Assembly (NCBI GenBank): GCA_964187785.1
Contig: OZ076409.1
Span: 58,592,001-58,656,000 of the forward strand
Length of the DNA: 64,000 bases
Direction: 5' to 3'
Origin: Amphiscolops sp. MND2022
Lineage: Eukaryota
The position numbers and the translations under genes are program-made. How positions within the stretch are numbered: the stretch's first letter is position 1; each line of letters starts with the position of its first letter. The notes beneath the pieces are model-generated. The model ran no database searches. It was given only the letters and a program-made list of their open reading frames with translations, and had not been told where the DNA came from. Below are positions 12,608 to 36,879 of this stretch, piece after piece.

Positions 12608-12743
12608 AGTTTTTCTGGTGCGAAGCAAAACTAATTGAACAACAAATGGAAACAGAGCTATCATTATATGCAAGGAAACTATGGAACGAATTACTATTGA
12701 CCAGTAATGATGCTTTCAGGTAATTGATTCGATATAAAACTTC

Positions 12744-15700
12744 ATGGAAGCAGACTCTCAATCGAAAAGACTAACATTTTTCCTTCTTGCTTCATTTAAT
12801 ATAGCAGCTGGGAGTTTTCAGTTTCGACAGTTGTCTGCTCCCATGTTTCACCCCATTGCTGTATATTGTTATATATCTTTGAACACTTCAACCAAATATT
12901 CCAAAGCTTATGAGTTGAAATATAAAATGACAAGAAAACCAGGAAACACAAGACTATCGAAGTATTACAACACCTACAGATATAATCAACGTCTGCTTCT
13001 ATTCGGCGATGTTGAGTTAAATCCTGGTCCACTTATTTATTTCAAGTTTTTAACTGGACAATTCGCCAGAAATAAGAAGCAACTTAAATTCTTCCATGTA
13101 AACAGTCAGTGCATGTTGCACAAAAAACACAGGTGGAATCCATTATTAGCGATCTTTGGAGAAAATTGTACTTATGGATTCACCGAAACGTGGCTAAAAA
13201 ATTGTGACGATGAAACGACGAAAAAAGATCACTTCAAAACATTCCGAGCCGACCGCAAACTTACCAAGAAATTGAGAGGCGGTGGAGCAATGATAATTGT
13301 GCCAAAAAATCTCAATCCAAAGATAAGAAGAGATTTGGTTCACACTAATGAGCTTGATTTTGAAAGTGCATGGATAGAGTGCAATATCAACAATGATGTA
13401 TCCAATAAGAAAAAACAACGGATAAATGGGAGTTATAATAGCAACAAAGCTCTTCTCAATACTTTTCTAGAAGAATTGTCAACCAGCATAGATTATGCGA
13501 TAACTGAAAATAAACCCATCACCTTAGTGGGAGACTACAACTTGGATTACCTCAATAAAAAAGAAAAAAAAAGTTTAGACACAATTATGGTAAAGTATGG
13601 AATGAACATCACAAATAATAAAATATCTACAAGCATATCAGGCAATTGCAAATCTCTTCTCGACTATATCATAACAGATCTACCTGAATTGAAACGAACA
13701 AATGTATCCGATACCCCTCTTAGAAGAATCCAGGGAAAAATGAGCGATCATTTTGCGACATCAATCATTACGGAAAATAAAATGCAAAAACCGCCAAGTG
13801 TTACAATCAAAGAAATTTTCGATAAAACATAATACAGAGTCGAAGAACTAAGAAGTTTTATCAGTAAAAGCAACTGGTGTTTGTTTTATAATCAAACTTG
13901 TGCTGAAGGAATGTTTACGGTTTTCGCGGATATTCTAGAAAAAGCATTGCGGCGATGTGCATCCATAAAAACAGTTTCATTAGAAACGATAAAAGCAAGA
14001 TGACAATGGAACGAAAATGGATAAAGGAGAAAACAAAAAAATTGTACCGGAAAATTGACTCTAGAATGAAACCACAGTCCTTAACTTACCAACAAATTCA
14101 AAATGACCTGAATGAGAATATTAACTCTAGTCGTTAAGATTTTCAGTCTGAATGTTTCAATAATCTGAAAACTGAACGTGACATATGGAATTTCATTAAC
14201 GAGACCAGGAATAGCGAACGGACAAAAACAGAAAAATTCAGTCTGAAAAACAGTTTTGGCGACACTGTCACTGACCGAAAACGAATTGCAAATTTATTGA
14301 ACTACCGATTTTCAAAACTAGGAGAACTTCGGACAAACCAGACAATATATGAATAAAGCCTCGAAAGAATTAAAGAACGATAATAAAAAATTCAGTCTTC
14401 AGCCCATAAGCTTATTTGAATGCAAAAAAAAACATTTGAAACGTTTAGATAAGATCAAACCGTTAGGCCCATCTAACATCCCGGCTTGGGCGTTGAAAGA
14501 TTGTCTGAATTTATTAGCTGAACCGCTTTGCTTCATGATAAAAGCTTTTATTGAAGAGGGTAAATTTCCAGAACATCTAAAACAAGCACATGTTATACCG
14601 ATCTTTAAGAAAGGTGATAATGAAGATCCTGATAATTACCAACCAATATCAATCACATCTTCTCTTGCAAAAGTTTTTGAACAAATCTTAAGAGAGCGAA
14701 TGAACGAGTACCTTGAAAGGAACAATTTACTCGGCCCATTGCAATTTGGATTCCGAGCAAAATATTCAACAACGGATGCTTTACTGAAAATATAAGAAAA
14801 GATCTAGATGACAATCAAAGCACAGCAGCAGCTTTTTTGGACCTATCCAAAGCATTCGATTCGATGTCTCATGAAATCCTTTCGGAAAAACTACATCATC
14901 TCAATTTCGATGAAAAGGCCATCAAAATGATAGAGAGTTTTTTGACTGGAAGATACCAAATGGTTGATGTATCCACATGTAGCTCAGATTGGATTCAATT
15001 ATACCTAGGTGTTCCACAAGGGACAGTTCTCGGACCACTTCCTTTCAACATCAACGTTAATGACATGCATAATCAGTCATGGAAAATTGTAATTTATTCC
15101 AATATGCTGATGATACTATGATATCTAGTTCACATAACGATTTGACGACAGCTCGCAATAAATTACAGCAAGCAATAGAAAGACTTGTCAATTTTTTCGA
15201 GAGTCACCAATTAACAATCAATGCGAACAAAACTGAATTTTTTGGTTTTTCGTAAACCATCCAAAAACAAATTTGCCGGAAGTCATACCTTCAAGATTAA
15301 AAATCAAATTATCAATACATCAACAACTATGAAACATTTATGTGTTTATCTGGATCAGAATTTGGATTTTCAAGATGAAGTGAAAAACATCCTCCGGAAA
15401 ATGGCTACCGGCATCAAAAAATTATATGCTATACGCGATATCTTTCCAACTGCGACACGATTAATATTACTCAATGCCTTAGTTTTAAGTCACCTACATT
15501 ATTCTTCTATCCTACTATCTGGTATCAGTGAAAACTTGATTACAACTCTCGAAAAACAATTGAATTGGGGAATTAAAGCCTGTTTCAAAAGAACTAAATT
15601 TGACCACTCAAAAGATCTCAAAATTCGACATAAAATCCTTCTTGTTCGACATTTTGTAGATTACAACTGCCTCTTATACCTTTGGAAATATGAAAGCAGC

Positions 15701-15991
15701 CTAATTCCAGCGTTTGATAGAAAACATCATTTACCGACTGCTGCGACAAAGACTGATGAAAGAACATAAATTGAGTACTCAGATATGGCAACAAGGTCTA
15801 ATTTTCGGCGCAATTGTTTCTTCAAAAGAACATTACCCCTGTGGAACACTCTTCCGAGAAAAATGATAGAGAAAATTTCATACGAAACAATGAAAAAAAG
15901 AATCAAATCTTTTCCTTCTCAAAGATACGAAAAGGAAATAGACCGACCACAATATGGAAAAAAATGTTGGAGTGTTTACCGTTATACATAA
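12744..15991 (+). pseudogene. LINE ORF2: 2A-like peptide, APE endonuclease, reverse transcriptase (fragmented)
   Basis: ORF pieces 12744-13832, 13955-14137, 14349-14795, 14837-15121, 15221-15769 and 15785-15991 carry collinear EN and RT motifs. Confidence 0.9.
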
Positions 15992-16254
15992 TTCGTCCCA
16001 TAATCACCCCTTTTTTACTCATCAATTAGTTTTTCTAACAATTATATTGTAGACACTGCCTTTTGAAATAGAAATTCATTTTTTATACTATTTTAAGTAG
16101 GAAATACAGTGTTCATTTTACTTCCCCCGTGTTTCGCCAATTCGCATTGGAGCAGTTTGGAGATTCACTTTATACTCCAATAGAACAATAATCATGTTTT
16201 CTACATCAGATAAGATGTCTGCTTCATGCGAGGGATTTACTTTTTGTTAGGACA

Positions 16255-17420
16255 ATTTACTGGTGTTGTTTTGGAGTTAGTCGCATTTGATTTTACAGGT
16301 GTCGACGTCCCGGCTACGGAGACGTTTTCTGGCTCAAAATCAGTATCTTGATCTTGTAGACTGATTGGACGTTTTTTACTCAGAGGTACTATTAGTTTAA
16401 GCAATTTTGTTTTGGTTTTCAGCTAATATATTTGTTAAATCGTTCAAGATTCCTTTCCTCAGAGACGTTTTTATCTTATCAAGATTTTCAGGTTCAGCTC
16501 TAAGAGATTTGCAAGGACCGGCTACTAGATTTTCCGATAAGTTATTTTCAGCTACAGGGGCTTCAAAATCTCCAGAAACTAGCTCAGCTACAGTTTTTCT
16601 TATTTGACTTCGGGTTGTCATGTTCTATGTTGAAAAGTTTTGGTAAGATTTCGATTCTTCGAAAAATACAATTTGCGTTTTTAAAACGGGACGGTTATCT
16701 ATCACAACAGGTTACAAAACTAACTAAAATTACATGACAATCCTAGATATTTATACCTTACCAGCATCATTTGTTCCACACCTAAAATTTCTTAGGTATC
16801 ACAAAGTCGGGTTTTTTTCCATCAGAAAGCACTAATGAAACAACTTATTTCAGATCTGCATCATAAAATCAAGTATTAGAATTCCTAGTTGCGTTGCTAT
16901 TCCGTAAAACTTTGTTGAAATCATTTTTGTACAGGCAATTCCATTTCCTGTTTGAGGCTCAAAAATGCGTCAAAATAAAGATCTTGTTCTCGTTTTCATC
17001 GACGAAAGCACGCCGGCGTGATCAATTAGTCAAATTCCAAGTTGGGAAGATAATATTCGAATCAAAAGTATGACACTCAAAAATATCGACAGAATCGAAA
17101 CGAAGCAAAAAATTTTGGAAATGAAAATATCTAGATATTGAGAAAGAAACAAATGATGCCGGGATGGCATATTCCAAATCCAAAATTCCGATTCACGCAG
17201 CAATAGTAAATGGTATATTTAACAAAACACAAACAATTACTGACGGAAACTATCCGTTAAAATGGTACATATTCAGCACAATAAAATTAACTTGGAATAA
17301 ATAATGGTACATCATTACAAACTGTACAGCAATGACAAAATTTTCAGGTATCATTCATTTAAGCAACAGGACTTCTGAATTGCATCAATCTTACGTTGTC
17401 TTTCAGGTATATTCTAACAA
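16255..17420 (-). mobile_element. Gypsy 5' leader and gag start (same family as 29905-30455), truncated
   Basis: 16255-16801 aligns by eye with 29905-30455. ORF 16397-16621 starts MTTRSQIRKTVAELVSG. Confidence 0.8.
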
Positions 17421-17424
17421 ACCA

Positions 17425-18072
17425 TGATGGTAAAGTTCCCAACTTTGAAGTCTTAACAAGGATTTTATACAATGTAGGATTAACGTTTCATTATTGAGTT
17501 AGGAAAATAAAATCAGAGATTATGAATATAATCCTTTAATGCTTCCTCACAGTACAGCTTCTTTTAAGTGAAACCCTAACTCTAAAATTGTTCAAACGCA
17601 TTGATTAGAAAAATCTTCATTTGAATTTCATTTGAACCGTTACTTCATAGTTACAATCTTACAATTCGTTTCGTAGTACGTATTAAGATTAGTCATAGCT
17701 GTGCAGCGGCGTACAGTTTTACAATCTGGTGCGTAGTCGCTCCGTACGTATTAACATTAGGTATAGTTGAGCAGCGGAATGCAAATTTACAATTCACTCC
17801 GTAATCGCTCCGTACGTATTAAAATTAGGTATAGCTGAGCAGCGGTGGCTGACGGAGAGAAAGCGGAAAGCATAGTTGACTTCGTTCTTCTTCTCTTAGT
17901 AGGGGCAACCAAGCACGATTTTATCAGCTTGAGCTCAAACAATTGGGTTGAGAAGAGAAGCTTTTGGTCCGTAAAAATAGAAACACCTATTAATAGCGCT
18001 GAGTGACGTTGTCATAACGTTGTAAACATTTACTTAGAATCACTTGACTGCGGTTTTAATTGAATATTGACA
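17425..18072 (-). repeat. Candidate LTR containing three 68-bp tandem units
   Basis: Minus strand begins TGTCAATATT (18072) and ends ...ACCATCA followed by TGGTTTGTTAG (PBS-like). Units CGTATTAA.ATTAG.(T/C)ATAG.TG.GCAGCGG start at 17679, 17747 and 17815. No second LTR copy in the window confirms the boundaries. Confidence 0.35.
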
Positions 18073-18429
18073 ACTACTATAGTACCGGAAAATACTTCCT
18101 CTATACTATTTTGTATGTTTTTTTCACTTTAGATTGTCTGAACTCCGTTGGGAGCGCGGAGTTAAATGTTATCTTCAATGTTTCATTTTAGTGTGGAGAA
18201 GAAAGAAAGGATCGCATTTTTGAAAAATGTTTCTGTTTTAGTATTTAGATCAGTATGGAAATTTCAGAAGGTGAAACCGGAACCAGAAAGGAAGGTTACA
18301 TCTGAAAACTTTAGACCGGAAGTTTTAGCTATCCTAAAATCATTTCCAACAATATTCCGTAATGCTTGCGTTAGATTCCGTGTTCATAAAAATTTCTACA
18401 GATAATTTGATTGTAACGTGAGTAGAATT

Positions 18430-19960
18430 AAATTAACTAAAGTTAAATTTAACAGTATTTGAGTTAAGTTTAACAGTACTTGTAGTTGCCGTGACCAACT
18501 CCGCTTGTATAGTTCGGGATTCCAGAGCAGCAGTAGGAATTACGACCGGGAGCGGGTCGTGACAGGGTCCCTCTCGCTCGAAATGCTGGCAGACCTTGAC
18601 AGTGGGCAACTTCTTTCACAATTGTCACGGCCTGCTTCCGTGGTCTTTGTATTTTTGTTGATGAAAACCAGCTGCCACGTCCAGCTAACGAGTAGAATTC
18701 TGTTGCTGTTGAGTCATTTAGGTCTAGTCCCCACGTTTCTTCAATTTCTGCGATCGAAGGCTCATTGAAGTCATCTAGTTTCCCAGCCTTCTCTGGGGTT
18801 CATATTGGGTAGGCGATAGATTCGTCAAGTCCCTTAGTATTGGGGCTGCTTGTAGGGGGCGGTAACTCACGTGGAGAGTCCGGTTCTTCAAAAAAACTGG
18901 GTTCTGAGTCTTCTTCGGTGTGATTTTCTACCACGAGAATTTCAATTTCTTCATTCGAGGCGATCCTTTCGCGAATTATGTCTACTGCAAATTTTCGCGG
19001 GGAGGGCCCGGGTTCAAAGGTAGAATCTGAGTCGTTTAGCAGGTTTAAGTTTCACGGCTGAACCATTTAATTCTTTTCTGCTTCCTGGATGAACTTCCGT
19101 GGACGAATCGCTTAAATCCAGTCTCCCATTGCCCATGTTTATTGGCATTGTTTTTATGGGAGTACTATAACGGTTGTTTTCCTCATCAGAAAAGATGTCA
19201 ATTACCAGTGCGTAATTATCCATTTCAAATGAGATTGAAACTGCTTTCCTTTTCAAACTGTAAAGGTTTTCAGATCATTTAGTCAGGCTGTTCGCTAATG
19301 AAAATGGACGACAAATGAACGTTTCAGTTTCCTTTTTCTGTGATTTTACTGCTTTTTTATTGGCTGTCATCCCTCCTTCGTTCCGGTCCGTCTTGGGCTG
19401 TTGGAAGCGTTTTGCTTCCGTCTACGCTGTGATTGGCCATTAAATTAAAGGAAAAAGATTTTGATTCAATATTCGTTTTCTTCAGCTACAACGTTATGAC
19501 GTCATCAGCATTCTTTCGGAAGAATTACGTTCACGTGACGAAATTTTTGAAGTGGTTTTCCTTGATGATTTTTCAGGATTTCTTGATCAACCTCAGATTC
19601 ACTGTATGATTTGTGGAAGCGTTTTGTTCTGTCAATGCCATAATAGGCTTTCACTGAAGTTGGAGAATAGGTATTTTTCCAAATATGTAAGGATAGCGTT
19701 GTTAATTTCCTTTTAGGGGGGTTACGTTCAAATAACGTAGTGGTTTTTCCTTTTCTTTCAAATTGCCTTGAAGATTTCACTATTCTTGATTTGTGGAGAT
19801 GGGAGACAAAAATATGTTCCCCCTACAGGCCCTAACACGGGATTTGTCAGTGGGAATGAGACCGTTTTTGGATACAGTGACGACGATGTGATTCCGTCTG
19901 GTTCTGATATTGGACATACTGTCCCAGGTGGTAAAATCTTTCTGACTTCCATGAGTACTT
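18430..19960 (-). pseudogene. Decayed low-complexity ORF(s) in a Gypsy 3' region
   Basis: Minus-strand pieces (19758-19952, 19505-19780, 19014-19256, continuing with stops to ~18440) are Pro/Ser/Glu-rich. No recognised domain. Confidence 0.35.
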
Positions 19961-19999
19961 AGACTTTTGTTTTTGGTGATCAGCCTTTGTAGTCTTACC

Positions 20000-22950
20000 C
20001 GAATTCCTGAAGCGTCGGAACCAGATCTTGATTTTCAATAACTCCATCTGTTGCTTGTTCAACTGCTCCCGGAGACAATGCGGAGGGGTCCCATTCAGCC
20101 ACTGTGGAATTGTTTACATCTTCCACCACTGTCTTACCCTCTATTTCTGAGGTTTTGTCAGCAGTCCGGACTCCTTCCGTTAATGAGACATTTATCTCCA
20201 CATTAACTGTTCCTGCGCTTGAGACTGTATCCTGTTGCGGCTGTCATTTCTGCCGTATTTCCTACGTCAGTTCCTGTTTTATCTGATTCTCGGCCTACCA
20301 ATAGTGAGTCTCAAGGAGGTGAGACCGATCCCCCCGCCGAGAAAAATCTGGGTTAGTTGCTGTGTGTATTGTGATCAAATATCACTTTAGGGCGAGGTGT
20401 AACGTGTAGTATTAATCTTGGGTTTGTATTATTAGGGTTGAAAGGTCGTTCCGCGGCAAAGCCGTCCGTGAATTTTGCGACGCACCCTAGGCGCGCTAAG
20501 AAAGCTGTTCCTCCTCCTCCGAGCCCTCCACCTTTGACGCGAGCATCTGGGGGCTGGGATAGTCAAGATGAGGAGCAGACTGATTTTGTTCGTGATATGC
20601 TGTTCAATTCTGAGGACTTGATGCAATTGAGTCACCGCTTGGTGGATGAGGTGGAGAATCGGACTTCGCAGACTATCCAAAGCGGTTTGTTTTCATTTTA
20701 GTTGTTATTGGTGGGCTTGTTGTATTTGCTTGTTTTTGTTCGTTGAGTTATTCTTTATTTGCTTGTGTTGAATTGTGTGTGTTTCCTCTTCTCCTCGCAA
20801 TAATTGTATATTTGTATGTTATAGGTTTCCGTGAACTCAGCGAAAAAGTTGAGAGCCAGCTGGGTAAGAAGACGCCTAAAAAGTACAGCAGTCGCAAGTT
20901 GTTATATCGTCTCATGCTGGATCTCCATCCCGTTTATAAATGTTTCGCGAGTGCAAAGAACAATCAGGCGACGTACTTCCACTGCCTGGTATGCCGTTGT
21001 GATGTGGCTATGAAGGCGCATGGTTCTGGCGAGTTTGGACGCCATTTTAAATGCGATAAACATTGGATCAAAGATGTGACCTATAGATAGCATATGGGCT
21101 TGCCTGTTCTTAATCTCTTAATGTAGCCTATGGATTTGACTGAGGCCCAGTTAGCTGAGTATCGAGCTAAGCTTTTCGAGGATCTTGGTGAAGAGTACCC
21201 CTTCCCTGACGACCTTGTGCCGAAGCATTACCGTGTCGAATCTAAAGTTCCATTTATGACGTTCGTGGGATGCCTGGGAGAATTTTTCGCAGTGGAGGGG
21301 ATTTTACTTTCTTGCGGCGGGTTCTGGGGACATTTTTGTTTGTCTCCGGGAGATCGGAAGACTGAATTCGCCTTGAACTGGAGACGTTCGGAAACGGTGG
21401 TAAGATATTTTTCTTTTGTTTCCGATTGCCTGACGTTGTATGTTGTTTTTTTCTTGGTTGATCTGTTAGAAATACGTGTGCTGTACGTCAATTGTGTGTC
21501 AATTTCTGGCCCTTCGTGTGTTGTGGTTGATGATCAAGCATATTACAACCTTCGGAGTGTATAGTTTGCAATTTGAGAAGTCGTCGTTCGTGGAGTATTG
21601 CTATGTACTTGTTGGGAAGTCAACCATCTAAAAAGGGTGTGTATTGGAAAAGAGTCTTTGGAACAGCCCGTTCCCAATGCGGACCTGGTGCCTTTATTGC
21701 GAATTGTGTATAGTCTTCCCACTAAACAGCTGCCATTTGCCATTTCTGGTGCGAGTCCGTCTTTGGTCCGTGTTCTGGGAAAGACTCGTGAAGATGGTCG
21801 TCGTTTCATTTTGTATCAAGCCTTTAGCGAAGAACTTTTCTTGCAGTGCTTCCTACAGGCCAACCAGGATGTGTCCGGTTTGGTGGAAGTGGTGACGATT
21901 GTCGACTATGTTGTAGATCGTCTAAACAGTGCCTTGTACGAGGAATGGACGGAGGATAAAACGGTGTTACGTAAATGTGTTCGTCAAGGTTCCGTCAATT
22001 TTGGTGACTATCGTGCTCTGCTGACTAATTTGATCGGCCTGTGGCCGTCGATCCAGCCTTACATTCGTTGCACTGGGAATCCCGAATTGAAAGAAAAAGC
22101 CGATAGTGTTAGTATAGCATATTTGGTTGTTATGGGTTGGGGTTGACTTGGTCTGTAAGTAGGTTTTGGTTTGCTTTTATATGAGAGGGCCAGACTGGCA
22201 TTTAATTGCTGATGATATGATTACATATCGATTCGAGCTGTTACGTTTCGTGCTCGATACCTGTAAGCACGATCGTTCCAATACCACTGCCAGTTAGATA
22301 CCTAATGTGGTGCACTTCCTACTTCGTGATTTCAGTTTCCAGGCACGTCATCATGTTTGCCGTTTATTGAAGCTGTGTTGCTTGGTTATGGGGGGTTCTT
22401 GCGGGGTTCATCCGCAGGTGACCTTTGATCTGGGAGGGAGTAAAATCGGTGCAGACGTGTTTCAAGGCTGTCTTTGACTGGTTTAAAGTTATGATTTGAG
22501 ACCAGGGTTTTGTCCTCAGTCAATTTTTACAGAGTCAACTTTGGGTGCAGTTCGTCATGCTATTGCCACTGCTGGGATATTTTTCGTTACTCCAGCTTAT
22601 GATGTTTGGAAAGACGTTTGTGATCTTGGAGAGGATTCGTTTGTGTCACAGAGTAAGAAAGCTTATGATACATACTTGGAGCGCCGAAAATCTTATGAAT
22701 GAGCATCATTAGTGGATTGTAATAAAGTGAATTGACTTTCTCGCGTCAATGCCGTAGTTCCTGCTGCTGATACGGGCAGTACAAGCAACTGAGGTTCAAA
22801 GAGATCCAGGGGCAGTGTTGAAAAGTCGGGTTGCGGAATAAAACCTGCATCGTCTTCCAACAAGACAGTCGGTGCTGGTGCTGGTAATCAAAAAGGGAAG
22901 CAGAAGCCTCCGAAACCTGATGATCGAGACGTGTTCCATCGAATAAAGTG
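20000..22950 (+). pseudogene. Intron-containing hAT-transposase-like gene with C2H2/BED-type zinc finger, decayed
   Basis: CLVC-x16-H-x5-H finger (CLVCRCDVAMKAHGSGEFGRHFKCDKHW). YSLQFE resembles the hAT FSLxxDE strand. GT-AG intron 20685-20824 joins ORFs in frame, with further donors at 21400 and 22108. In-frame stops near 21088 and 21124. Confidence 0.55.
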
Positions 22951-23109
22951 AGGATTAGCGCATTTAAATGACTCTATTTGAAGTTTGGGTAGAAGAAATG
23001 TAATTGTATCATTTATTGGACTCTGAGGTTCTGTTTTAAATGATTGCACTGTTGTTAGAAGTATTTTGTAGTTAAAGAAACAGGAATTAAACGTCACCAC
23101 TCCGGTTCG

Positions 23110-26100
23110 GGTTGGTCTGTTGATTGTTTTCCTCCAGTCTTTGGCGTAAGTCTTCTGTTATAACTGAGTCGAGCATTCTGAAGTCTGGATTCACATTAGG
23201 CTTTGGGTTAGGTTGTAAATTATAGCGTCCGATTTTTTTAGGATTATATCCAACGACAATAGGCGTTAATTCAGCAGGTTTTTTTGGAGGGGGGGCATTC
23301 TATAGGCGGTGGAGACAAATTATAGGGATTATCACTGACATCCAGATTAAATGACGTAGCGTTATTGGAAGATGTTTTATCCTCATCAGAATTTTCAACT
23401 GTGGTTGTTTTAACCACCACATTTTCACGTTGTAATTGCGTTATCTTCTTTCTTGTCTGTGATTTCTGTGATTGTAGCTTTTTCTGACAACTTTTGCTTG
23501 GGTGTTCCGAAGAAAAAGTCTCCGAATGCGGTTTCCCAAGGTTGCGCGTACCAATCATTGTGGGTTGTTTTAACCTCTGGATCTGGAAGATAATCTTCCT
23601 CTCTGACTGTTACGTCAGGTACTCGCTGATTGTGCGCATATAGCCTTAGGCGAATCCTATGGAGGGTTTGCGTGAACCTTGTACCCGTTCTGCGCAGGAT
23701 ATAGTTGTTATTTGAAAGGACTTTGACTACAATATAAGGGCTAGTTCAGATGTAATTGTTGAAAGCGAATTTCATTGACTGATTATCAGCTTTCGGATTA
23801 ACCTTAAGTTGGCCAGGAAAAATCTTGTTGCGTCCAAAAATCAGGTGCTTCAACTTTAAACCGCAATATCTCCTGAACTATACAAGTCCGACAAACGATT
23901 TATACAGCGTTCGAAAGAGGAGCATTGGGGCTTTCAAATCAATTTTTAAACTGCTGGGCTTGGGGCCCGCTAGCGCGGGCTCCTTGCGCGCAGTTTTTTG
24001 CGCGAAGTCCTCCACTGGCGTGCGGCTTCGCCGCACTGGCTCCGAACTTTGCGCCAAAACTTTGCACGCGTCGTGTCTCTGCTTGCTTTCCAACATGTTT
24101 CAAAACATGCTGGGGACGCTTTGACCCAATGTTGATACCAGTGGGATAAAAGGGGCACAAACGAAACCTGGGAAAACGGAAAATCTGCACTTATTTTTCT
24201 TTTGATTTTTTTGCGTCATTTTCTGGGTTTTTGAGACATCACGTCAATTTTCCGTGAAAAGGCGCCGAATGCTGTGCAATATTGTCTGAAACTCTTATTA
24301 AAGGGTTTGCTTTACCATACAATCAGCTGGTGCGTTAACAATTTGCAGAAACAAAATGTGCCAAATTTGGCACATTGGCCAAGTTAAGGTTAAGAACGTA
24401 GCAGTAGTCGTTGACCTTGAGTGGCGTAGCCGTCGCTTTCTTGTCGTAGTATTGTTTGTACCCCAATGTAGGATTGCATAAGGTTGTCTTTGGCTGCTTG
24501 ATGTATCTCTGTTAACTGTTTTTGCAGTTCATCCGTTAGGTCTTCGTTCTTATCTTTTTTCCACTCTGGCTTTTTTCCGAGTTTGATGTCTAAGATGTTA
24601 TACGGGATACGTCCGTCGAATATTGTTGCGGGTTCACAGCCTAAGTTTTCGTGGTGTTGTAGTTCATGACTCCTGTTTGGACTTGGACGTATTTGTGCCA
24701 CATCGAACGTCTCTCGCCCGTTGATATTTTTAATGAGATCTTCAAGGAGGCATGAGTTCTCTCTAGTATGCCTATTGTTTGGGCGTGTTTCGTTGAAGCG
24801 TGGCTTATTCGTATGTCTAGTGTCTGGGCTTTTTGGTTGACCACTTCTGATCTAAATTGTGATCCTTTGTCAGTCAATTTGACTGTTGGCAAATAGCAAT
24901 GTCTTGTCATTACATCGATGATGCAACGTGCTACTGTTTTTGCAGTCATTTCTTGGGTTGTGTATGCAAAGAGGTAACGGGAAAAGACATCCATCATTGT
25001 ATTGATGTGTTGGTATCCGTTTGAGGAAGGTAGGTTTGGGAGTATGTCAACTTCCAGACAGTCTTCTGGTCCCATTGTGAGTTCAGTATTGCTCAGCATT
25101 TTGGGACGTATTTGTCTTGCGTCAATTTTCTTGTTGGCGATGCAGTCTGGACAGCTTGTTACTCTTGCTATGATTTTTCGTGCTAGGCCCGGGAAATATA
25201 ATTTTGCCCTGCATTCTTGTATCATTTTCGTGATTCCCGGGTGTTTACTTGTTTTTCCGTGTAATGTGGATAAAAGTTCAGGTACTAAATGTTTTGGGAT
25301 TATGACTTGATTGTGGGTGACTGACCCATCATCTCCGTAGTACTTGCGCTTGAGTACACCGTCTTTCATGATTATTCTTTCCTCGTGGCGGAGTAGATTT
25401 CTCCAACGCTGTTCAGTTTTGAGGAGATGTTGGTCATATTCTTCGTGGAGTACTCGTGATTTAAGTGCCTTGAGTATTGGGAAGCCATCATTATCGTTTC
25501 TGATGCGTGCGTTTTCTTTGATTGCTCCAAACGTGTAGACTGCGGAGTTGAGTGGTATCTTGATTACTTCAGTTACTTTTGTAGATAGTTCTTTGTTGTG
25601 ATCGTCGATAGCGCGTTGTTTGCTATGTGAGTTTCTGGCAAAATTGTCTTGCTTTGATTCTTTTTCTTCATCCGGGAGAAAAAAAGTTGTACTTCGTCAG
25701 CAACGTCCGATGATTGTAGGTTGACTTCAATAGGTGACGTTAGGAAGTCGTCCCTTAATTTCAATTGCACTTTTTCCTTGGGAGTTAGTTCAAGTCTGGA
25801 TAGGAAATCTGTTGCCGTGTTTTGGGAGCCTGCTACGTGCATGATGCGAATCTTGAATTGAAGGATGTAGTCGCAGGCATTCCATAGTGCAGGTTTTCCA
25901 TAGTTTTTGTTTGAAAAAACCATGTCACTGATCGGTTGTCTGTTAAGACCAGTGTTGGTATCGTTGTTTCCCATTATATATGACTATATTCGAAAAAGGC
26001 GCGGTATATGGCTAAAACTGTTTTGCAATATATTGACATCTTTAGTTGTGCCGGCGAGAAAACACGTGATCTGAACGCTACTGGTGCCAACTTTTTTTTT

Positions 26101-28865
26101 TCAGAGTGTAGTTTCCGTTCATCCTTTTATTTGATCATGAGAGCGTAGCCTGAAGCACGGAAGCTCGCGTCCGTCATTAGGACGTATTGTTTTCCAGCTA
26201 CTGGTTGTCTCAGTGCGAGTCGGCACGCTTCCGCTAGGCTAGCGTCGATTTGCTTGGAATTGTCGACAAGTTCTTCTGAGATTCGGATTTTGGAAACAAC
26301 TTTTAGGTGTTCATACATACTGACAAGGTTTTCTGATAGGCGTGGTGTGTAATTTCGGTAGTAGTTTACAAACCCGATATATTTTTACACTTGCTTTTTT
26401 GATTTCGGGAAACGGAGTTTGGAGAGAAAGTTTTCGATTTTTTGGTCTTGCAGGTCTACTCCGTTCTGGGTGATTGTTCTTCCGAGGAATTCGACCTGAG
26501 TTACGCCAAAGTGACATTATTTTTTGATTGTTAGTTTCAGTCCCGCTTCTCTGATGCACTTGAAGACTGCTCTGATGTTTTTGATGAGCTGTTCCGTTGT
26601 ATTCGCGGCTATGCCGATATCGTCAATGTAATGCGCACAATGATTTGCTTTGATGACTGAGTCACGGTACTCTCACATGAAGCTCAAGAAGGTCGACAGG
26701 GCTCTGCTTAGTCCTTGTGCTAGGCGCCGGTAGGCTAACGTCCTACTAGCAAAATTAAAAGCAAGTAATTCTACTGACCTTTGATCTGCCATTTGGAGGC
26801 AGTGGTACGCCTGGGAGCAGTCAAGATTGCAGATTTTCCCTGCTAGGTGTTGTGATGCGACTGAAAGGGTGCTGAGGTAGTCTCAGTTTGCCGTTGGGTT
26901 TCCCTTTGGCGAATATGTGGCTTGCGTATTTGGAGAATGGTAGTGTCGTGATTATTCCGTATCAATGAATGAGGGCTAGTTCTACTCTTAGGTCTCCTGT
27001 GAGATTGGTCGGGACAGGTAGACTCTGCGTGTACACTGGTTTGTCATTTTTTGGGTTTAGATTGACTTTGAATTGCGTGTTCATCCCGATGTCGAATCTG
27101 TGTCGTGCGAAGATGTCATTGATTTCTACTATTGTGTTTTCTAGGTTTTCTCGGTCTTTGCCCGTAATCAGTGAGTTTGTCCTTTTGGACATTGTTAGAA
27201 ACTAATTTCGGGATCCTCGTTCTCCGTTGGGTCAAGTTTTTCAAGCTCAGTCAGTTCCCGTAGTTCTTTCAAGATCCCTTTCTGGATGGGGGAGTGTTCT
27301 TGTTCATTTCCGGGCTTTTCTGGGGTTGGGAACTAGAAGTTTTCTTCATTGTTGTTGGGCGTTCCACTTGCATCAATTCGTTGATGTACGTTACAACGTC
27401 GTCGTTTGTTGGGAGGTTGAGTGCAGCTATGTCAACTGGACGGATCATCTTCGTTCCTTCCGGTTTTAAAATTTGCAGTTCTGCCACTTTGGTGTCTGCA
27501 GCTATTGGGTAGGGAAAATTGGCGGTGTTGGCGATCTTTATTGCTGCTCTCTTGTCTCTGGCAGTTGTTATTGCCGGGGCTACTATCAGTTTCGCGCATT
27601 CATCGAACTGCGGTAGGGTCTGAATGGTCTCAGTTATTGGGTGTTCACTACTTACAGGGATCGATGCGTAGATGATGCGAGTAGAATGTGTGGGTATCGT
27701 GTGTTTTGCGTCTGTTTTAATCGTGATTGGCTTGGGGTTGCACTTTTGCATTTCGTCGGTAAGCGCCACCGTGATTTGAATTTTAAGGAAGTCGATGGTC
27801 CCTTGGGCACTGTCAAGGATTGCGGCATGTTTTCGCAGAAACGTCAATCCTATTATGGAGAATGACGTCTGGTTGATGATGATGAACGTTTCCTTAAAGG
27901 TGTAGTCCCCAGTTTGAAATCGTATGGCGTACTTGGCGAGTGGTTGCTCAAACTCGGTGCTGGCGTATTGTACTTTGAAAGGGGGTGGAGGTGCCTTATT
28001 GATGATGCATTGGCTTGCATTTTGTCAAATTTTTTTCAGCGTCCCTTTCACTAATAGCAATAATATATGCGCCTGAGTCAACTAACGCATCAATCTTGAC
28101 GGTATTGAGTTCAACTGGGAGAAAAAGCATTCTCTTTTTCTTCTTGAGTGCGGTTGCAGACATCAACGGGATGTAATCATCATTTTTGCCGTGTCGTATG
28201 AATTCTTTGATGACATCCAGATCTTCGGGTAGTGGTGGTGGGCCTTCCGTTTGTTCTTCGTTGTTGTCCGTTACTGCACTAGCGGGTGCGGTTTGTGGTG
28301 GTGGAGGGGCAGAGGAGTCAATTGTATGTTCTCCTGATTTCCGTGTCCACAACGTCTTGTCTTCTATGCCTATTATATGGTCAGAGTTTATTGGTGTAGA
28401 CGTGACGGTGACGGGTACTTTTGGGGACGGTTCTGATTTTTTCAGAAATGGTGACAGAGGTGGCGAAACGTTTGGTATCTCTTCAGGCGGTTTTTGTGGG
28501 TTTGGGACCTGGATCTTGAAGGAGAGTTTGTTAGTGTCGTAAACGGCAGGTTCATCCCATGGGTCGCAACGGTAGTCCGTATCGTAAACAAATATTCTGT
28601 CAGTTTTTGATTCTGGCAGTTGTGGTTTGAGTGTAGCGTAATTGTCAGGGGACTCCGTTATCCATTGGGGGAGTGGTGTTGGGTCGTCTGGGTGTCTGGC
28701 ATTATGTTTGAGGATCATGCCTATGTTGCAACGTCGCTGCCAATCCTGAGTCGGTTCTTCGTTGCATTCTGTCATGAAATCCTCTTCGTAGCGATTTGGG
28801 GGGTCTTCGATCGTATATGCCCTCGCATCCACCGTTTCCCCAAAGCGGAGGCGCGGCGATTTCAA
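23110..28865 (-). pseudogene. Gypsy pol (protease, dUTPase-like spacer, RT, RNase H, integrase), fragmented
   Basis: ORFs 27996-28865, 27269-27847, 26962-27192, 26127-26318, 25573-25974 and 24641-25369. C-terminal GRYNLQPNPKPN near 23200. Confidence 0.9.
23802..24389. mobile_element. piggyBac-type MITE (588 bp) inserted in the Gypsy integrase
   Basis: TTAA duplications at 23798-23801 and 24390-24393; TIRs CCTTAAGTTGGCCA / TGGCCAAGTTAAGG (1 mismatch). Removing it restores DYCYVLNPKADNQSMKF. Confidence 0.9.
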
Positions 28866-30270
28866 GTATTCGGCTGAGAGGACACGGTGAGCACTGGCTG
28901 TCCGCTGATTTGGTTAGTTGGGATGGCAATTTTGCGCGTTTGCTTCCGTGGGTCATTTGCCGCGTTAGCTCCGTCCCGGTTAGCATTTTTCGGTTTTGTG
29001 CAATTTTCCGCACGTGCCGCACTGGGTTTTGGTGCTTCTGGTTGGTTTAAGTCAGTATTGCCCGTTTCGGTTGCGTAGTGTCGTTCTTTTTGTAGTCGAC
29101 GGCATTGCGCTTTGTAGTGGTCATATTTACCACAATGAAAACAATAACCCCTCTGTTGTTGTTCCTTCTTGCCTTCCGTCACTACTGCGTCCACTGTTTT
29201 GAGAGGGACTAGGGTCGTTTCATCAGGCGCTCCTAGGCCGTTTAGTCGCATCTCCCGCTCAAGGTGCAGATCGATATCGATGTACGGTTTATCTTCGAGG
29301 TACGCTCTAATGAGGATCTTTTTGACGTGATCCGGCATTTTAGCGTATATTGCTTTGTCAATGAACTTTTGCGCTTCGGAACCGGACGCTTCTTTTGCAG
29401 GTTCCTGTAGGGTTTCAATGATTTCAGGCAGTTTTTGTTTTGTGGGTCAAAATGCAGTGCGTCCCACTCGCATCTAGCTTTTGCGGAGGGTTGGAAATCC
29501 CCGAAAAGACGTTTGAATGCCGTTATAACTTCTTCTTGGTTGTCTTTTTTGGCATCCTCAAGGTTGCAGTACGCTTGAAGTGCGTTCCTTCTTAGTAGCG
29601 AGTGGAAGTGGTTGATTTTCTGTACCTCAGTGAGATGAGGGTACACTTTGATGTTATTTCGAAATGAGTCCGCAAAAAGTTCAAACTTTTTGGACTTACC
29701 ATCGAAAACAGAGAGCGTAGCAGTGAGTGCTTTCGGCATCGGGAGTAGGTTGGAGTGTGGGAAAGTCTGCGGTTGAGGTGCGAACAGTATTTTAGATCTT
29801 GAGGGACGGTCTCTTGCTTGTTCGCTGGAGACGCGTTGTTTTTTCCGTCGCCTATTGAGTTGATTTGTTGAGTCATTGAGGACTCATGTCACCATGTTAC
29901 GACTACTTACCGGTGTTGTTTTGGAGTTAATCGCATTTGATTTTACAGGTGTCGACGTTCTGGCTACGAAGATGTTTTCTGGCTCAGAATCAGTATCTTG
30001 ATCTTTTTGACTGATTGGACGTTTTTTTACTCAAAGGTGCTATTAGTTTAAGCATTTCTTTTTGGTTTTCAGCTAATATCTTTGTCAAATCGTTCAGGAT
30101 TTCTTTCCTCTAAGACGTTTTTATCTCATCGAGATTTTCAGGTTCAGCTCTAAGAAATTTGCTAGGACCAGCTACAACATTTTCAGATGAGTTATTTTCA
30201 GCTACAGAGTCTTCAAAATCTCGAAAAACTAGCTCAGCTACAGCTTTTCTCTTTTGACTTCGGGTTGTCC
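28862..30270 (-). pseudogene. Gypsy gag (frameshifted)
   Basis: ORFs 29242-29739 (FDGKSKKFELF..., HFHSLLR) and 28862-29338 (CCHC knuckle). N-terminus TTRSQKRKAVAEL near 30270. Confidence 0.85.
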
Positions 30271-30458
30271 TTTTCTATGTTGAAAATTTTCAGTCTTCGG
30301 TAAGATTTGAATTCTTCGGAGAATATAATTTGCGTTAATATAACGGAGCGGTTATATATCAACAGGTTACAAAATTAACCAGAATTACATTTCAATGCTA
30401 GGTATTTATACCTTACCAGCATCATTTGTTCCTCGCCTAAAATATCCTAGGTATCAAT

Positions 30459-31039
30459 GTTGATGTACGTTACAACGTCGTCGTTTGTTGGGAGGTTGAG
30501 TGCAGCTATGTCAACTGGACGGATCATCTTCGTTCCTTCCGGTTTTAAAATTTGCAGTTCTGCCACTTTGGTGTCTGCGGCTATTGGGTAGGGAAAATTG
30601 GCGGTGTTGGCGAACTTTATTGCTGCTCTCTTGTCTCTGGCAGTTGTTATTGCCGGGGCTACTATCAGTTTCGCGCATTCATCGAACTGCGGTAGGGTCT
30701 GAATGGTCCCAGTTATTGGGTGTTCACTACTTACAGGGATCGATGCGTAGATGATGCGAGTAGAATGTGCGGGTATCGTGTGTTTTGCGTCTGTTTTAAT
30801 CGTGATGGGCTTGGGGTTGCACTTTTGCATTTCGTCGGTAAGCGCCACCGTGATTTGAATTTAAGGGAAGTCGATGGTCCCTTGGGCGCTGTCAAGGATT
30901 GCGGCATGTTTTCGCAGAAACGTCAATCCTATTATGGAGAATGACGTCTGGTTGATGATGATGAACGTTTCCTTAAAGGTGTAGTCCCCAATTTGAAATC
31001 GTAGGGCGTACTTGGCAAGTGGTTGCTCAAACTCGGTGC
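30459..31039 (-). repeat. Near-identical duplicate of Gypsy pol segment 27380-27960
   Basis: Sequences match at offset 3079 with few substitutions. ORF 30447-30848 repeats most of 27269-27847. Confidence 0.92.
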
Positions 31040-32389: not shown

Positions 32390-32513
32390 TGCGTTCTTTG
32401 GTTTCCCTTTGAAATATTGTCATTTTTGAGAAACAAGTTGCTTAGTTTTTTTTCAACTAGTCGATTCCCCCAAACAGTTTGAATTTTTGCATTTTGTTCA
32501 TTTCAGAGCTTTC

Positions 32514-33977
32514 ATGACAGGCCTTTCGTCTAAAAGTGTGGGTTATCTTTTGGTGAAGTCCAATACGGTGTTCACTTCGAATCTTTCGAAGTCATGTACC
32601 AAAAGCTTTTCGACCAACACAAACTCCACTGTTACCAGTTTCCAGCCTGCTGTGAGATGCAGTTATCAGTTTTCATCTCAATCAAGTCTTTTTTGTCCGA
32701 GTAAACAGCTTTATTTGCAGTTTAGTCGAGAAGCCTCGAGAAAAGGTGGCTTCTTCAGTAAGTTGTATCAATCAATTCAAGACGAACTTGAACAAAGTAA
32801 AGAAATCAAAAGTTCTATCAAGAAATTCAGAGACGAAACAACCAAACTCGACGAATCAGATGCTTTGAAAAGCGCCCGGAAAAAGTATGAGTCCTTTGAA
32901 GAAGAAACTAGCCAGAAAACAAAAGTGCTAAAGGAGAAATTCTCGGATGTTTCTGGAGCTTTGAAAGGTAGCCTAGATGATATAAAAAGATCAGAACTTG
33001 GACAACAGACCACCAATGTAATCGAAAATGTGGGCAAAGGTGTAAAAAGCGCCGGTGAGACATTGAGTAAAGGTGGAAAAGTCATCACTGAAAGTGAAGC
33101 CTTCAAAACAGTAAGCGAAGCATCTGAAATTGTTCGGAAAAACATTGACGAAGAGTTAGCTAGAGCTCGAGTTTACAGTTCTCCCAAAATATTGAAACGA
33201 CGTTCTGATTTCAGAATGTTCTCAACAAAACAGGCTGAAGCATTCAACCCTGAAACTCATGATGTAAACGAAAGTGAGTTACGCATGGAGCTGCATAAAG
33301 ATGCAAGGTGGTACGCCAAGTGGCAAGACTTCAAGGATACCAACCCTATGATGAATAAAATGTTTGACTTGAAAAACCAATACGATGAATCTGAAAATCC
33401 GGTCATTGCCAGCACCAGATATATATCGGAGAAAATTTCCGGAATTGTTGGTGGTATACTGACACCCAACTCAACCAGCAAAGTTATGAGCGAGATTCGG
33501 AAAGTTGATCCTAGTTTCACTGTCACCCGTTTCAATGACGTATGTCATAAAATAATATTCCCTCATGTTGTTGAGGCTTTGTTTCATACAAAATTCGACC
33601 TTTTGGAGGACTGGTGTACTGCCCCTGCTTACAATAAAATTCGCGCCCAATTAGACCCTTTGATTAAACAAGGCTATAGAATTGAGTCTCACATAATGGA
33701 TGTTGGAGAGCCTGATGTTGAGACTGCCATCATGGAAGATTCAGTGCCAGTTTTGGTGAGTCGCTTCAATGTGCAAGCTCTGTGCATCATCAAAGATACA
33801 AGAGGCAAAGCACTTTCTCTTCCAGATGGAACAGCTTTGATTGGAGGCGGCGAGGAAGGAAAAGTAGACCAGTACATGTGGTTTGTAGCCTTGACCCGAG
33901 ACATGGACGACGTTGACCCAATTTCATCATGGAGGATAGGGGATGTTGAAATCAGGAGACACAAATTAGCTTTTTAA
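32514..33977 (+). CDS. TIMM44: Mitochondrial import inner membrane translocase subunit Tim44
   Basis: Ser/Thr/basic presequence-like N-terminus, coiled coil, LHKDARWYAKWQDFKDTNP, YDESENPVI, EIRKVDPSF, LLEDWC and a C-terminal Tim44 domain. Intronless; ATG 32514 follows TTTCAG. Confidence 0.93.
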   Translation: MTGLSSKSVGYLLVKSNTVFTSNLSKSCTKSFSTNTNSTVTSFQPAVRCSYQFSSQSSLFCPSKQLYLQFSREASRKGGFFSKLYQSIQDELEQSKEIKSSIKKFRDETTKLDESDALKSARKKYESFEEETSQKTKVLKEKFSDVSGALKGSLDDIKRSELGQQTTNVIENVGKGVKSAGETLSKGGKVITESEAFKTVSEASEIVRKNIDEELARARVYSSPKILKRRSDFRMFSTKQAEAFNPETHDVNESELRMELHKDARWYAKWQDFKDTNPMMNKMFDLKNQYDESENPVIASTRYISEKISGIVGGILTPNSTSKVMSEIRKVDPSFTVTRFNDVCHKIIFPHVVEALFHTKFDLLEDWCTAPAYNKIRAQLDPLIKQGYRIESHIMDVGEPDVETAIMEDSVPVLVSRFNVQALCIIKDTRGKALSLPDGTALIGGGEEGKVDQYMWFVALTRDMDDVDPISSWRIGDVEIRRHKLAF

Positions 33978-34169
33978 ATGTGAAAGAAAGTTTGTTTTCG
34001 CTCATTTTTGGAAAATGATATGAAGTATATCTCATTTTGACTATTCAATGCGAATTTGACTATCACTGAAAAAAACTATCTAATGTACCTCATTTTTACC
34101 AAATCGATCAAAAGTGGATTTGTGTTTTATACAAACATTTTCCTCAACTTTTTTGTTTCAGATTTAAAA

Positions 34170-35036
34170 ATGGGTATACGACCTTATTTGCCAATTCCTA
34201 GAAAAAGTCTCTTCAGATCTAAGCAACTACCAGGACCTTACAACCATTTATTCGATTATTTTGGTTTTCCTGTCGAAGGAATAATTTCTCAATTACCCAA
34301 ACATTATTTGGACCAGATAAAACCGTGTCAGCCCCCAAATAGAAACTGGAAAGTCCCCAACTACCCATATCATTTTATCCCTAAAGGTGCCAACAAGGCG
34401 CCTATTGAGAAAAAATACAAGCAAGCGATGTGGGCGCCTATTCCTGTCCTCTATCCGAAGCGTTCACGTGAAGAACTATGGTCAGGTGAGGGAATGATTT
34501 TTGGATTCCGTCAAAGAGATCGATACGATCAACCACACAGAACCATTTGGCATCCGAAACTGGAACACTGGACACTTTACAGTGAAATTTTGGACGAAAC
34601 TTTTGTTACAATTGTGTCAGACACAACTTTAGATCTCATAGACGAATGTCAAGGCTTTGACAATTTCATCTTGAAAACCTCTGCACAGGAACTGATGTCT
34701 GATTTGGCTATGAGAATTAAAGGCAGACTGTTGGTCTCGTTAGCAAAACAGGACTATTGGGAGAATGATGCTAAAATGAAACAGAAAATTCGAGAAAAGT
34801 ACAAAGAATTCAGGATTCCGTTAGAAGAAGCGGAGTGGGTTGGCTTGACTCCACAAGATGCAGTTTTCAAATTACAAATTTCGCAGTTGCCTGATTACAG
34901 ACCCCTCAAAGAAGTTTTTGCCGATGAAGAGAAAAAGTTGCCTGAAATTCCCTCTTTACTGAAAAACTCAGATACTTCAAATGTAGATAAACCTAGTTTT
35001 GGATCCAAAATACGGAGATTTTTCAGAAGTTCTTGA
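34170..35036 (+). CDS. MRPL28: Mitochondrial large ribosomal subunit protein bL28m
   Basis: PIPVLYP..LWSGEG, W.PKL...LYSEILD...TLDLIDE..GFD.FILKT, IPLEEAEWVGLT match metazoan MRPL28. Intronless; ATG 34170 follows TTTCAG. Confidence 0.93.
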   Translation: MGIRPYLPIPRKSLFRSKQLPGPYNHLFDYFGFPVEGIISQLPKHYLDQIKPCQPPNRNWKVPNYPYHFIPKGANKAPIEKKYKQAMWAPIPVLYPKRSREELWSGEGMIFGFRQRDRYDQPHRTIWHPKLEHWTLYSEILDETFVTIVSDTTLDLIDECQGFDNFILKTSAQELMSDLAMRIKGRLLVSLAKQDYWENDAKMKQKIREKYKEFRIPLEEAEWVGLTPQDAVFKLQISQLPDYRPLKEVFADEEKKLPEIPSLLKNSDTSNVDKPSFGSKIRRFFRSS

Positions 35037-36222: not shown

Positions 36223-36879
36223 AGCCCCTCTAAAAAGTTCAACGACTAAAATTCAAATATTCTTAAAACGTAGAATAAAGTGATGGTAACTCGTTTTTAA
36301 AACATACCGTAGGGTTTCAAAGTAATGGAGCTTTTACTTCAGTGTTCACAGAACATTTCATTGATTTCTTTTCGAAATGGTATATGAAGAAACGATACGA
36401 GCAGAAAAGGTCAATATTGAATAGGGTATCCTTTCTTCTGCTATATCAGCAATACAAGCGCTCAAGAATATCGTCCTGAAGGTTCTTGGCGAAATTATTT
36501 TTCGCCCATATTTCATGAGAAAGGAAAATATTAAAATCAGCTACGTTTTTTTTGAACAAAATTTGCCATGGTAATCCAAGTTGAACGGTTTTCTTTGATG
36601 TAAATTTAGTTTCATGCGATATGTATTTGTAGAGATTTTTGGACTTTTTTGGTTGACCCCAAAACGACAAAATTCTCCGATTTTTACCGTTTTTACGCAA
36701 TTTTTGTGAAATTTCTGAAAGACTTGGAGGCCTGGTATGTTAGAATCGTTGGAAAAAGAAAAAATTGGTTGTCCATGAGGAAAACTTTTTAAAATAGAAA
36801 AAAATGGTATAAATTGTTCTCAAATAGGCTTTTTGAAGAGTTATCTGCATGCTTATGTAAATGCTTCAAATTGATCCCA

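What the first reader, a model, noticed from the sequence alone, without database searches (positions are those of the whole stretch)
20000..23090. Antisense, intron-containing hAT-transposase-like gene sitting in a Gypsy 3' region
Seen: directly downstream of the Gypsy integrase end, the opposite strand carries a multi-exon gene. It has an in-frame GT-AG intron at 20685-20824, donors at 21400 and 22108, a CxxC..H..H finger and a YSLQFE strand where hAT enzymes have the first catalytic Asp. I found no convincing TIRs or 8-bp TSD. Inference: a catalytically dead transposase derivative captured as an accessory gene. Introns antisense to the genomic RNA would survive retrotransposition, and the protein could act as a DNA-binding regulator or anti-silencing factor. 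Caveat: 18430-19960 may derive from a different Gypsy, so the locus could be a mosaic.
Basis: partly seen in the sequence, partly recalled or inferred. Interest (0 to 1): 0.7.

Follow-up and report, generated by a model that had tools for sequence, protein, structure and literature searches.

The report
Dead hAT transposase gene inside Gypsy
A copy-and-paste Gypsy retrotransposon appears to carry, on its opposite strand, a spliced gene derived from a cut-and-paste hAT transposase that has lost its cutting residues, which suggests one kind of mobile element recruited another's enzyme as a DNA-binding helper.

Summary
A multi-exon plus-strand gene (about 19606/20436 to 22950) ends 137 bp from the stop of a minus-strand Gypsy pol. 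This copy is broken (stops, a frameshift, degenerate acceptors, an internal deletion). Its relatives form a large, deeply diverged family: 291 clustered members for one exon, and 638 representatives at 50% clustering. hAT ancestry is supported by structure, not sequence. A model of an 890-aa homologue ranks Hermes 1-10 in Foldseek (best E 4e-4); Pfam and PDB sequence searches are blank. Zinc-finger ligands are conserved, but the second catalytic-Asp position holds Asp in 1 of 47 rows. No TIR/TSD surrounds the gene, whereas a nested piggyBac-type insert in the same integrase keeps both. One chimeric ORF ties the gene to the neighbouring 18.5-kb ORF in another copy. No LTR pair could be shown; the 560-bp repeat is duplicated gag. 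Best reading: an antisense accessory gene encoding a non-catalytic DNA-binding protein. Function and expression are untested.

The parts
19606..19670 (+). putative first coding exon (ATG, Cys-rich), followed by a GT donor at 19671
   Evidence: sequence only; no homologue in hand; unverified
19830..20351 (+). decayed Ser/Thr/Pro-rich upstream exon(s); boundaries uncertain
   Evidence: inference
20352..20435 (+). GT-AG intron, phase 1 at both ends
   Evidence: donor read from the sequence; the coordinate tried was 3 nt off
20436..20684 (+). exon; its 3' part is homologous to P0003, P0033, P0283, P0306 and P0235, with matches ending at or within 14 nt of this donor
20685..20824 (+). in-frame GT-AG intron, 56% T
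20825..21399 (+). exon with BED-like C2H2 finger (20983-21063) and helical domain; two in-frame stops in this copy
21400..21469 (+). phase-0 intron (the acceptor used by homologues maps near 21487 and is degenerate here); absent from P0226 and P0300
21470..22107 (+). exon with RNase H-like core (first strand YSLQFE 21560-21577; second-Asp position about 21745, non-acidic) and start of the helical insertion domain; frameshift near 21610
22108..22180 (+). phase-0 intron, acceptor degenerate in this copy; the position is shared with P0188, P0172, P0209 and P0268
22181..22262 (+). short exon
22263..22297 (+). 35-nt intron remnant with mismatched phases; probable site of a deletion of internal exon(s), about 145 aa
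   Evidence: the deletion is inferred from P0226
22298..22950 (+). last exon, collinear with P0226 residues 663-835; basic tail; AATAAA at 22942; five stops in this copy
23087..30456 (-). decayed Gypsy gag-pol (gag, protease, RT, RNase H, integrase, p58 C-terminus); pol stop at 23087
23802..24389 (.). nested 588-bp insert in the integrase with 13/14 TIRs and TTAA duplication (piggyBac-type; label recalled)
18470..19274 (-). decayed small acidic ORF, divergent from the hAT-like gene; a homologue is fused to the accessory exon in P0223
17640..18100 (-). LTR-like or regulatory region with a 68-bp unit x2.5 (17676-17845); LTR status not shown
   Evidence: inference
16245..16801 (-). second copy of the 5' leader and gag N-terminus (86.9% to 29895-30456); not an LTR

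Best explanation
An ancestral Gypsy captured a hAT transposase gene in antisense orientation downstream of pol. The gene has since travelled with the element as an accessory gene. Because its introns face the other way, they are not spliced from the genomic RNA and survive retrotransposition (established logic of intron-based retrotransposition reporters; recalled). It would be transcribed from its own promoter near 19280-19600, shared back to back with a small acidic ORF. The protein keeps the BED-like zinc finger, the helical domain and the RNase H fold but has lost the DDE centre, so it would bind DNA without cutting it. Most likely it binds repeats in its own element (candidate: the 68-bp units at 17676-17845) and helps keep the element transcribed or protected from host silencing. 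Shown: gene anatomy, multicopy diverged family, Hermes-like fold, loss of the second Asp, no TIR/TSD. Indirect: linkage to pol. Inferred only: expression, DNA target, regulatory effect (about 0.45 that it is a transcription or anti-silencing factor, given that it is an accessory gene).
For: Fold: Hermes ranks 1 and 2 of 350,542 chains even for a poor model (E 0.064-0.068). It ranks 1-10 for the better model (best E 4.3e-4, prob 0.96). VIA aligns 216 residues, model 244-486 to Hermes 146-375 (Z 7.6, rmsd 7.4), where the non-Hermes rows align 70-119 residues. Ligands conserved: C 19 of 21, C 20 of 21, H 21 of 21, H 21 of 23 rows. First-Asp column: E in 24 of 33, D in 0. Second-Asp column: D in 1 of 47. 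Family: 37 clusters with 291 members for one exon and 24 clusters with 93 members for the next; 638 representatives at E<=1e-3. The subfamilies are deep, with root-to-tip paths well over 1 substitution per site, yet the exons stay open. The window integrase lies in a 640-member cluster. 3 of its 14 other listed members have contig lengths (39,324, 69,175, 106,724) that also occur among 167 accessory-bearing contigs. Likelihood ratio 15-1,900 depending on assumed assembly size. P0223 joins the accessory exon to a 48%-identical homologue of 18778-18485, as one inversion of the divergent pair would. No TIR/TSD, although a nested insert in the same element keeps both.
Against: No DNA of any other copy was seen, so linkage rests on contig-length matching of 14 of 640 members. 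Counted without length weighting, 3 of 14 is only P about 0.008-0.33 for assumed sizes of 1000-200 Mb, and the small-contig split was chosen after seeing the data. Repeats can cluster regionally. No LTR pair or TSD bounds the element here, and the locus is rearranged. VIA Z is under 8, and an actin-like chain ranks first by Z (7.9, 88 residues) in the wide search. No Pfam or PDB sequence hit. The folded protein is a homologue 25% identical to the window copy. The catalytic columns are placed by strand position, without a residue-level alignment to Hermes. Pol members 95-97% alike sit with accessory exons only 58-61% alike. That needs fast accessory evolution or recombination, and would also fit independent neighbours.
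Confidence: 0.7

Rival explanations
1. An independent, non-autonomous hAT-derived DNA transposon (possibly a two-gene unit with the small ORF) nested in this Gypsy copy and moved in trans by an active transposase.
For: hAT-like fold. Introns are usual in DNA transposons (recalled). P0223 links the two genes to each other but says nothing about pol. Old TIRs can decay.
Against: No TIR/TSD above background. Catalytic loss is family-wide while exons stay open across deep subfamilies, which a passively moved dead gene would not show. The gene ends 137 bp from the pol stop. Three pol/accessory contig-length matches.
Confidence: 0.14
2. The gene is Gypsy-borne but acts against other elements or through RNA: a dominant-negative repressor or decoy of hAT transposases, or a source of antisense RNA that tunes the element, rather than an activator of its own element.
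For: Loss of catalysis with a retained DNA-binding finger fits a repressor equally well. Convergent 3' ends allow read-through overlap. Antisense-RNA roles are discussed for plant elements (PMC7264820, passages).
Against: Deep protein-level conservation argues against an RNA-only role. No active hAT relative appeared among the best 150 of 638 hits as judged by Pfam on 15 of them.
Confidence: 0.1
3. A domesticated host gene family that expanded by segmental duplication and lies next to Gypsy copies because both gather in repeat-rich regions.
For: Non-catalytic hAT-derived host genes exist (DAYSLEEPER lacks DDE, TIR and TSD; PMC8616336, passage). Introns are present.
Against: Hundreds of copies in bursts of 13-90 near-identical members, spread over many different contig lengths, and many broken copies: this is a mobile-element pattern.
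Confidence: 0.06

Closest known systems
Plant Retand/Grande/RIRE2 (Tat) Gypsy elements with antisense ORFs between pol and the 3' LTR
   Same: Position and orientation; own promoter (Grande gene23); proposed DNA-binding regulatory role (PMC11963269, PMC7264820; passages).
   Different: Those ORFs encode TRP28 (PF04195) and similar domains, described as confined to flowering plants. Here there is no TRP28 hit, the protein has a Hermes-like architecture, and the gene has at least five introns. The word 'intron' occurs 0 times in the main text of both papers.
hAT transposases (Hermes, Ac)
   Same: Order of domains: BED-like finger, helical domain, RNase H-like core, helical insertion.
   Different: No Asp at the first position and 1 of 47 at the second; no Pfam hAT hit; no TIR/TSD.
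Domesticated non-catalytic hAT genes (DAYSLEEPER)
   Same: BED finger kept; DDE, TIR and TSD lost (PMC8616336, passage).
   Different: Host genes of low copy number; this family has hundreds of copies and sits inside a retroelement.
Bdelloid rotifer LTR elements with captured ORF3 (GDSL, DEDDy)
   Same: Animal LTR elements with captured non-env genes and a dUTPase between PR and RT (PMC5408684, passages). The pol here has a weak dUTPase hit at that place (E 0.15-0.22).
   Different: Different cargo with catalytic residues intact; not described as antisense genes in the passages seen.
PMD/VANC accessory factors of plant Gypsy and Mutator elements
   Same: Precedent for transposon-encoded anti-silencing or chromatin accessory proteins that evolve faster than core proteins (PMC13547354, PMC8616336; passages).
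   Different: Unrelated domain; no functional evidence here.

Membership tests
hAT transposase | N-terminal BED-type C2H2 finger | tested here: inconclusive
   C-x2-C-x16-H-x5-H ligands are conserved, but there is no Pfam BED hit and the fold searches did not align this part separately.
hAT transposase | RNase H-like core followed by a helical insertion domain | tested here: met
   Foldseek Hermes E 4.3e-4; VIA 216 residues, model 244-486 to Hermes 146-375, Z 7.6, rmsd 7.4; tested on homologue P0226.
hAT transposase | Catalytic D180 and D248 (Hermes numbering, PMC6027215) | tested here: not met
   End of strand 1: E 24 of 33, D 0. End of strand 4: D 1 of 47 (next column D 2 of 47). Columns placed by strand position.
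hAT transposase | E572, R318/W319 and the C-terminal dimerisation region | tested here: inconclusive
   Model pLDDT is mostly below 50 beyond residue 480; no Pfam hit; no conserved RW pair seen in the columns printed.
hAT transposon (element) | Short TIRs and 8-bp TSD | tested here: not met
   0 TIR+TSD hits; inverted matches at or below control counts; this copy only.
Ty3/Gypsy LTR retrotransposon (carrier) | pol order PR-RT-RH-IN | tested here: met
   P0349 and P0342 domain order, collinear with the window.
Ty3/Gypsy LTR retrotransposon (carrier) | LTR pair, PBS, PPT, TSD | tested here: inconclusive
   The only long repeat is duplicated gag; no TSD; locus rearranged.
Antisense accessory ORF of an LTR element (Retand-like arrangement) | Present between pol and 3' LTR in most copies | tested here: inconclusive
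   3 of 14 contig-length matches and P0223; no flanking DNA seen.
Antisense accessory ORF of an LTR element (Retand-like arrangement) | Transcribed from its own antisense promoter | not testable with these tools
   No run could be listed for read mapping.
Retand TRP28 ORF | PF04195 domain | tested here: not met
   No hit.

The most novel reading that the evidence does not exclude
A whole lineage of Gypsy elements carries a two-gene accessory cassette between pol and the 3' LTR: a small acidic ORF back to back with an intron-rich, catalytically dead hAT transposase. The cassette has diversified into many subfamilies much faster than pol, as in an arms race with host silencing, and the former transposase uses its BED finger to recognise the retroelement's own repeats as a sequence-specific anti-silencing or targeting factor. 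This would be a class II enzyme domesticated by a class I element.
Probability: 0.3. Interest if true: 0.85.

Novelty: new variant of a known kind. Interest (0 to 1): 0.64.

Why it matters
Transposase domestication is known mainly as a host trick, and antisense accessory genes of LTR elements mainly from plants, where their origin and function are open questions. A Gypsy lineage that domesticated a hAT transposase would give such a gene a clear ancestor and a testable activity (BED-finger DNA binding). It would show a multi-intron gene persisting inside a retroelement by orientation alone. It would also warn annotators, since the gene is invisible to Pfam and would be split or mislabelled as a nested DNA transposon.

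Tried and rejected
No whole genome was held. No sequencing run was listed; this is no evidence on expression. Locus scans found nothing: metagenome contigs with P0001 and P0112 and viral contigs with P0349; alignment A2 was too variable to search with. The ESM Atlas gave no usable hit. Pfam and PDB sequence searches were blank. Four look-ups of earlier findings were empty. I first read the 560-bp repeat as an LTR pair and rejected this because it encodes the gag N-terminus and has no TSD. Alignment A3 stacked the two exons on each other and was discarded; A4 was chosen as the 1 of 3 mixed sets that aligned correctly. The read-through tail of pol P0342 does not match the antisense of the last exon. 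7 of 10 window ORF guesses were not in the collection, and 2 more were singletons. dN/dS could not be computed without DNA of other copies. Literature: searches (Gypsy/LTR with antisense, additional or extra ORF, hAT, transposase-derived, BED finger, captured, intron) listed no paper whose title or abstract opening describes a hAT-derived gene in an LTR element. The library lacks most subscription journals and Repbase reports, so absence is weak.

Full report
Setting. The window holds a decayed Gypsy on the minus strand. Gag (DUF1759), protease, RNase H, integrase and the p58 C-terminal domain are found by Pfam in the window ORFs. Intact relatives show the order PR-RT-RH-IN and are collinear with 28718-23084. 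The pol stop is at 23087. The host is a eukaryote: there is a Tim44-domain gene at 32430-33977 and a LINE-type RT at about 12.7-16 kb. I did not determine the organism.

Boundaries. The 560-bp direct repeat (16245-16801 and 29895-30456, 86.9%) looks like an LTR pair but is not. It contains the gag N-terminus running on into gag, has no target duplication, and its 30456 end abuts a 97.8% duplication of 27372-27960. The order on the minus strand is gag-pol, then the antisense gene, a small acidic ORF (19274-18470), a region with 68-bp units (17676-17845), an AT-rich kilobase and a second, truncated gag start. This resembles a head-to-tail tandem sharing one LTR near 17640-18100, but that LTR is not shown: no second copy and no clear PBS were found.

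The gene. The introns read here are 20352-20435, 20685-20824, 21400-21469 (homologues point to an acceptor near 21487), 22108-22180 and a remnant 22263-22297. The last exon ends at 22950 with AATAAA at 22942, 137 bp from the pol stop. Homologous ORFs called without regard to splicing stop matching at the same donors and continue as low-complexity tails. A valine follows the exon end in 115 of 118 and 72 of 77 stored proteins that carry the flanking motifs. These counts include redundant cluster members, and the two intron-less homologues also have valine at the first site, so they are only supporting. Stronger is that P0226 and P0300 lack the 21400 intron and are collinear across it. The window copy is broken by seven stops, a frameshift near 21610, two degenerate acceptors and a gap of about 145 residues relative to P0226. 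Its last exon still aligns to P0226 residues 663-835 (E 3e-5; score 93 against a shuffle mean of 33.5, 0 of 300 shuffles reaching it).

The family. Exon 20825-21399 finds 37 clusters with 291 members at 51-78% identity, the window's own ORF aside. Exon 21577-22107 finds 24 clusters with 93 members at 56-85%. All are labelled ENA only. A profile finds 638 representatives at 50% clustering, of which I saw the best 150. A tree of 38 selected rows shows many well-supported subfamilies and root-to-tip paths well over 1 substitution per site. Exons that stay open over such distances imply selection on the protein. This is inference, and gene callers favour open copies; dN/dS could not be computed.

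Ancestry. Sequence searches against Pfam and PDB are blank. A poor model of P0112 (pLDDT 45) nonetheless ranked two Hermes structures first and second of 350,542 chains (E 0.064 and 0.068). A model of the 890-aa homologue P0226 with a 71-row alignment (most 10-residue blocks from 61 to 480 score 60-98, mostly below 50 beyond) ranks Hermes 1-10 (best E 4.3e-4). VIA aligns model 244-486 to Hermes 146-375 over 216 residues (Z 7.6, rmsd 7.4). Other RNase H-like folds align 70-119 residues; one of them, an actin-related chain, has a tied Z of 7.9. Z under 8 alone would be weak; the length of the match and agreement across two models and two programs make hAT ancestry likely (about 0.9). P0226 is 25% identical to the window gene over 424 columns (E 1e-20). 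Hermes needs D180, D248, R318, W319 and E572 (PMC6027215, passages). At the end of the first core strand the family has E in 24 of 33 rows and no D; at the end of the fourth strand, D in 1 of 47. These columns are placed by strand position. The third acid could not be placed. The four zinc ligands are nearly invariant.

Does it travel with the Gypsy? No DNA of other copies could be fetched. Four indirect lines bear on it. First, there is no TIR/TSD (0 hits; 7 inverted matches against 5-24 in 8 controls), while a 588-bp insert in the same integrase keeps 13/14 TIRs and a TTAA duplication. Second, a gene that lost catalysis before its subfamilies diverged cannot have mobilised itself, yet it spread in bursts of 13-90 similar members. 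Of three collisions among 126 exon rows, one is two exons of a single locus and two are near-identical proteins of the same subfamily, so chance sharing between subfamilies looks rare. With assumed assembly sizes of 300-1500 Mb the likelihood ratio for linkage is 15-1,900. Without length weighting the excess is modest (P 0.008-0.33); contig length is only a proxy; and repeats may cluster. Fourth, P0223 fuses the accessory exon to a 48%-identical homologue of 18778-18485. One inversion (or a read chimera) within a back-to-back pair gives exactly this, so the small ORF and the hAT-like gene are neighbours in at least one diverged copy. Against a simple picture, pol proteins 95-97% alike sit with accessory exons 58-61% alike.

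How it most likely works. A promoter between 19280 and 19600 would drive a spliced plus-strand mRNA. The introns are invisible to splicing of the minus-strand genomic RNA and so persist (recalled logic). The product would be a non-catalytic, probably oligomeric DNA-binding protein. Hermes uses its BED finger on subterminal repeats (recalled), so the 68-bp units are a natural candidate target, and a role in keeping the element expressed is my best guess. None of this was tested. A repressor or decoy of hAT elements, a nested non-autonomous transposon and a host family remain as rivals.

Comparison. Antisense ORFs between pol and the 3' LTR are general in plant Retand elements and encode TRP28 (PMC11963269, passages). 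Grande's has its own promoter (PMC7264820, passages). Rotifer LTR elements capture enzymes as ORF3 (PMC5408684, passages). DAYSLEEPER is a non-catalytic hAT host gene (PMC8616336, passages), and plant accessory proteins evolve faster than core ones (PMC13547354, passages). No supplements were read; other papers were seen as search listings only. Searches listed nothing describing a hAT-derived, intron-containing antisense gene in an LTR element, but coverage is incomplete. It works like a Retand-type antisense accessory gene and descends from a hAT transposase; it is neither a TRP28 ORF nor an active hAT. Verdict: new variant of a known kind, interest 0.64.

Noticed in passing
window 23802-24389: 588-bp insert interrupting the integrase, with 13/14 terminal inverted repeats and a TTAA duplication (piggyBac-type; label recalled).
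   Followed up: partly
window 18004-18024 and 19487-19507: A 21-nt inverted match (86%, 14 exact) is shared by the LTR-like region and the presumed antisense promoter; CRE-, E-box- and CCAAT-like words lie nearby. May be chance.
   Followed up: no
window 18470-19274 (-): Small acidic ORF with a Cys-containing C-terminal part; no Pfam hit; conserved at 48% in P0223. Possible second accessory gene.
   Followed up: partly
P0349 337-415, P0342 187-265: Weak dUTPase hit (E 0.15-0.22) between protease and RT in the carrier's pol.
   Followed up: no
window 30453-31039: 97.8% duplicate of 27372-27960 (protease region) joined to the gag leader; marks a rearrangement at the element's 5' end.
   Followed up: partly
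window 51135-54608 and 55022-60590: Near-identical tandem duplications (1715 bp at 99.8%; 2787 bp at 98.6%); recent duplications or assembly artefacts.
   Followed up: no
window 12738-15991 (+): Decayed LINE-like element (RT hit) abutting the truncated second gag copy.
   Followed up: no
window 32430-33977 and 34041-35036 (+): Two adjacent, apparently intron-less host ORFs 63 bp apart: a Tim44-domain protein and a 331-aa ORF with no significant Pfam hit.
   Followed up: partly
P0226, P0300 versus P0313, P0287, P0293: The intron at 21400 is absent in one distant subfamily and apparently present in its relatives: intron gain or loss within the family.
   Followed up: partly
window 36778-38453 versus 48687-50138: Several long inverted matches about 10-13 kb apart, probably copies of another repeat family.
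   Followed up: no
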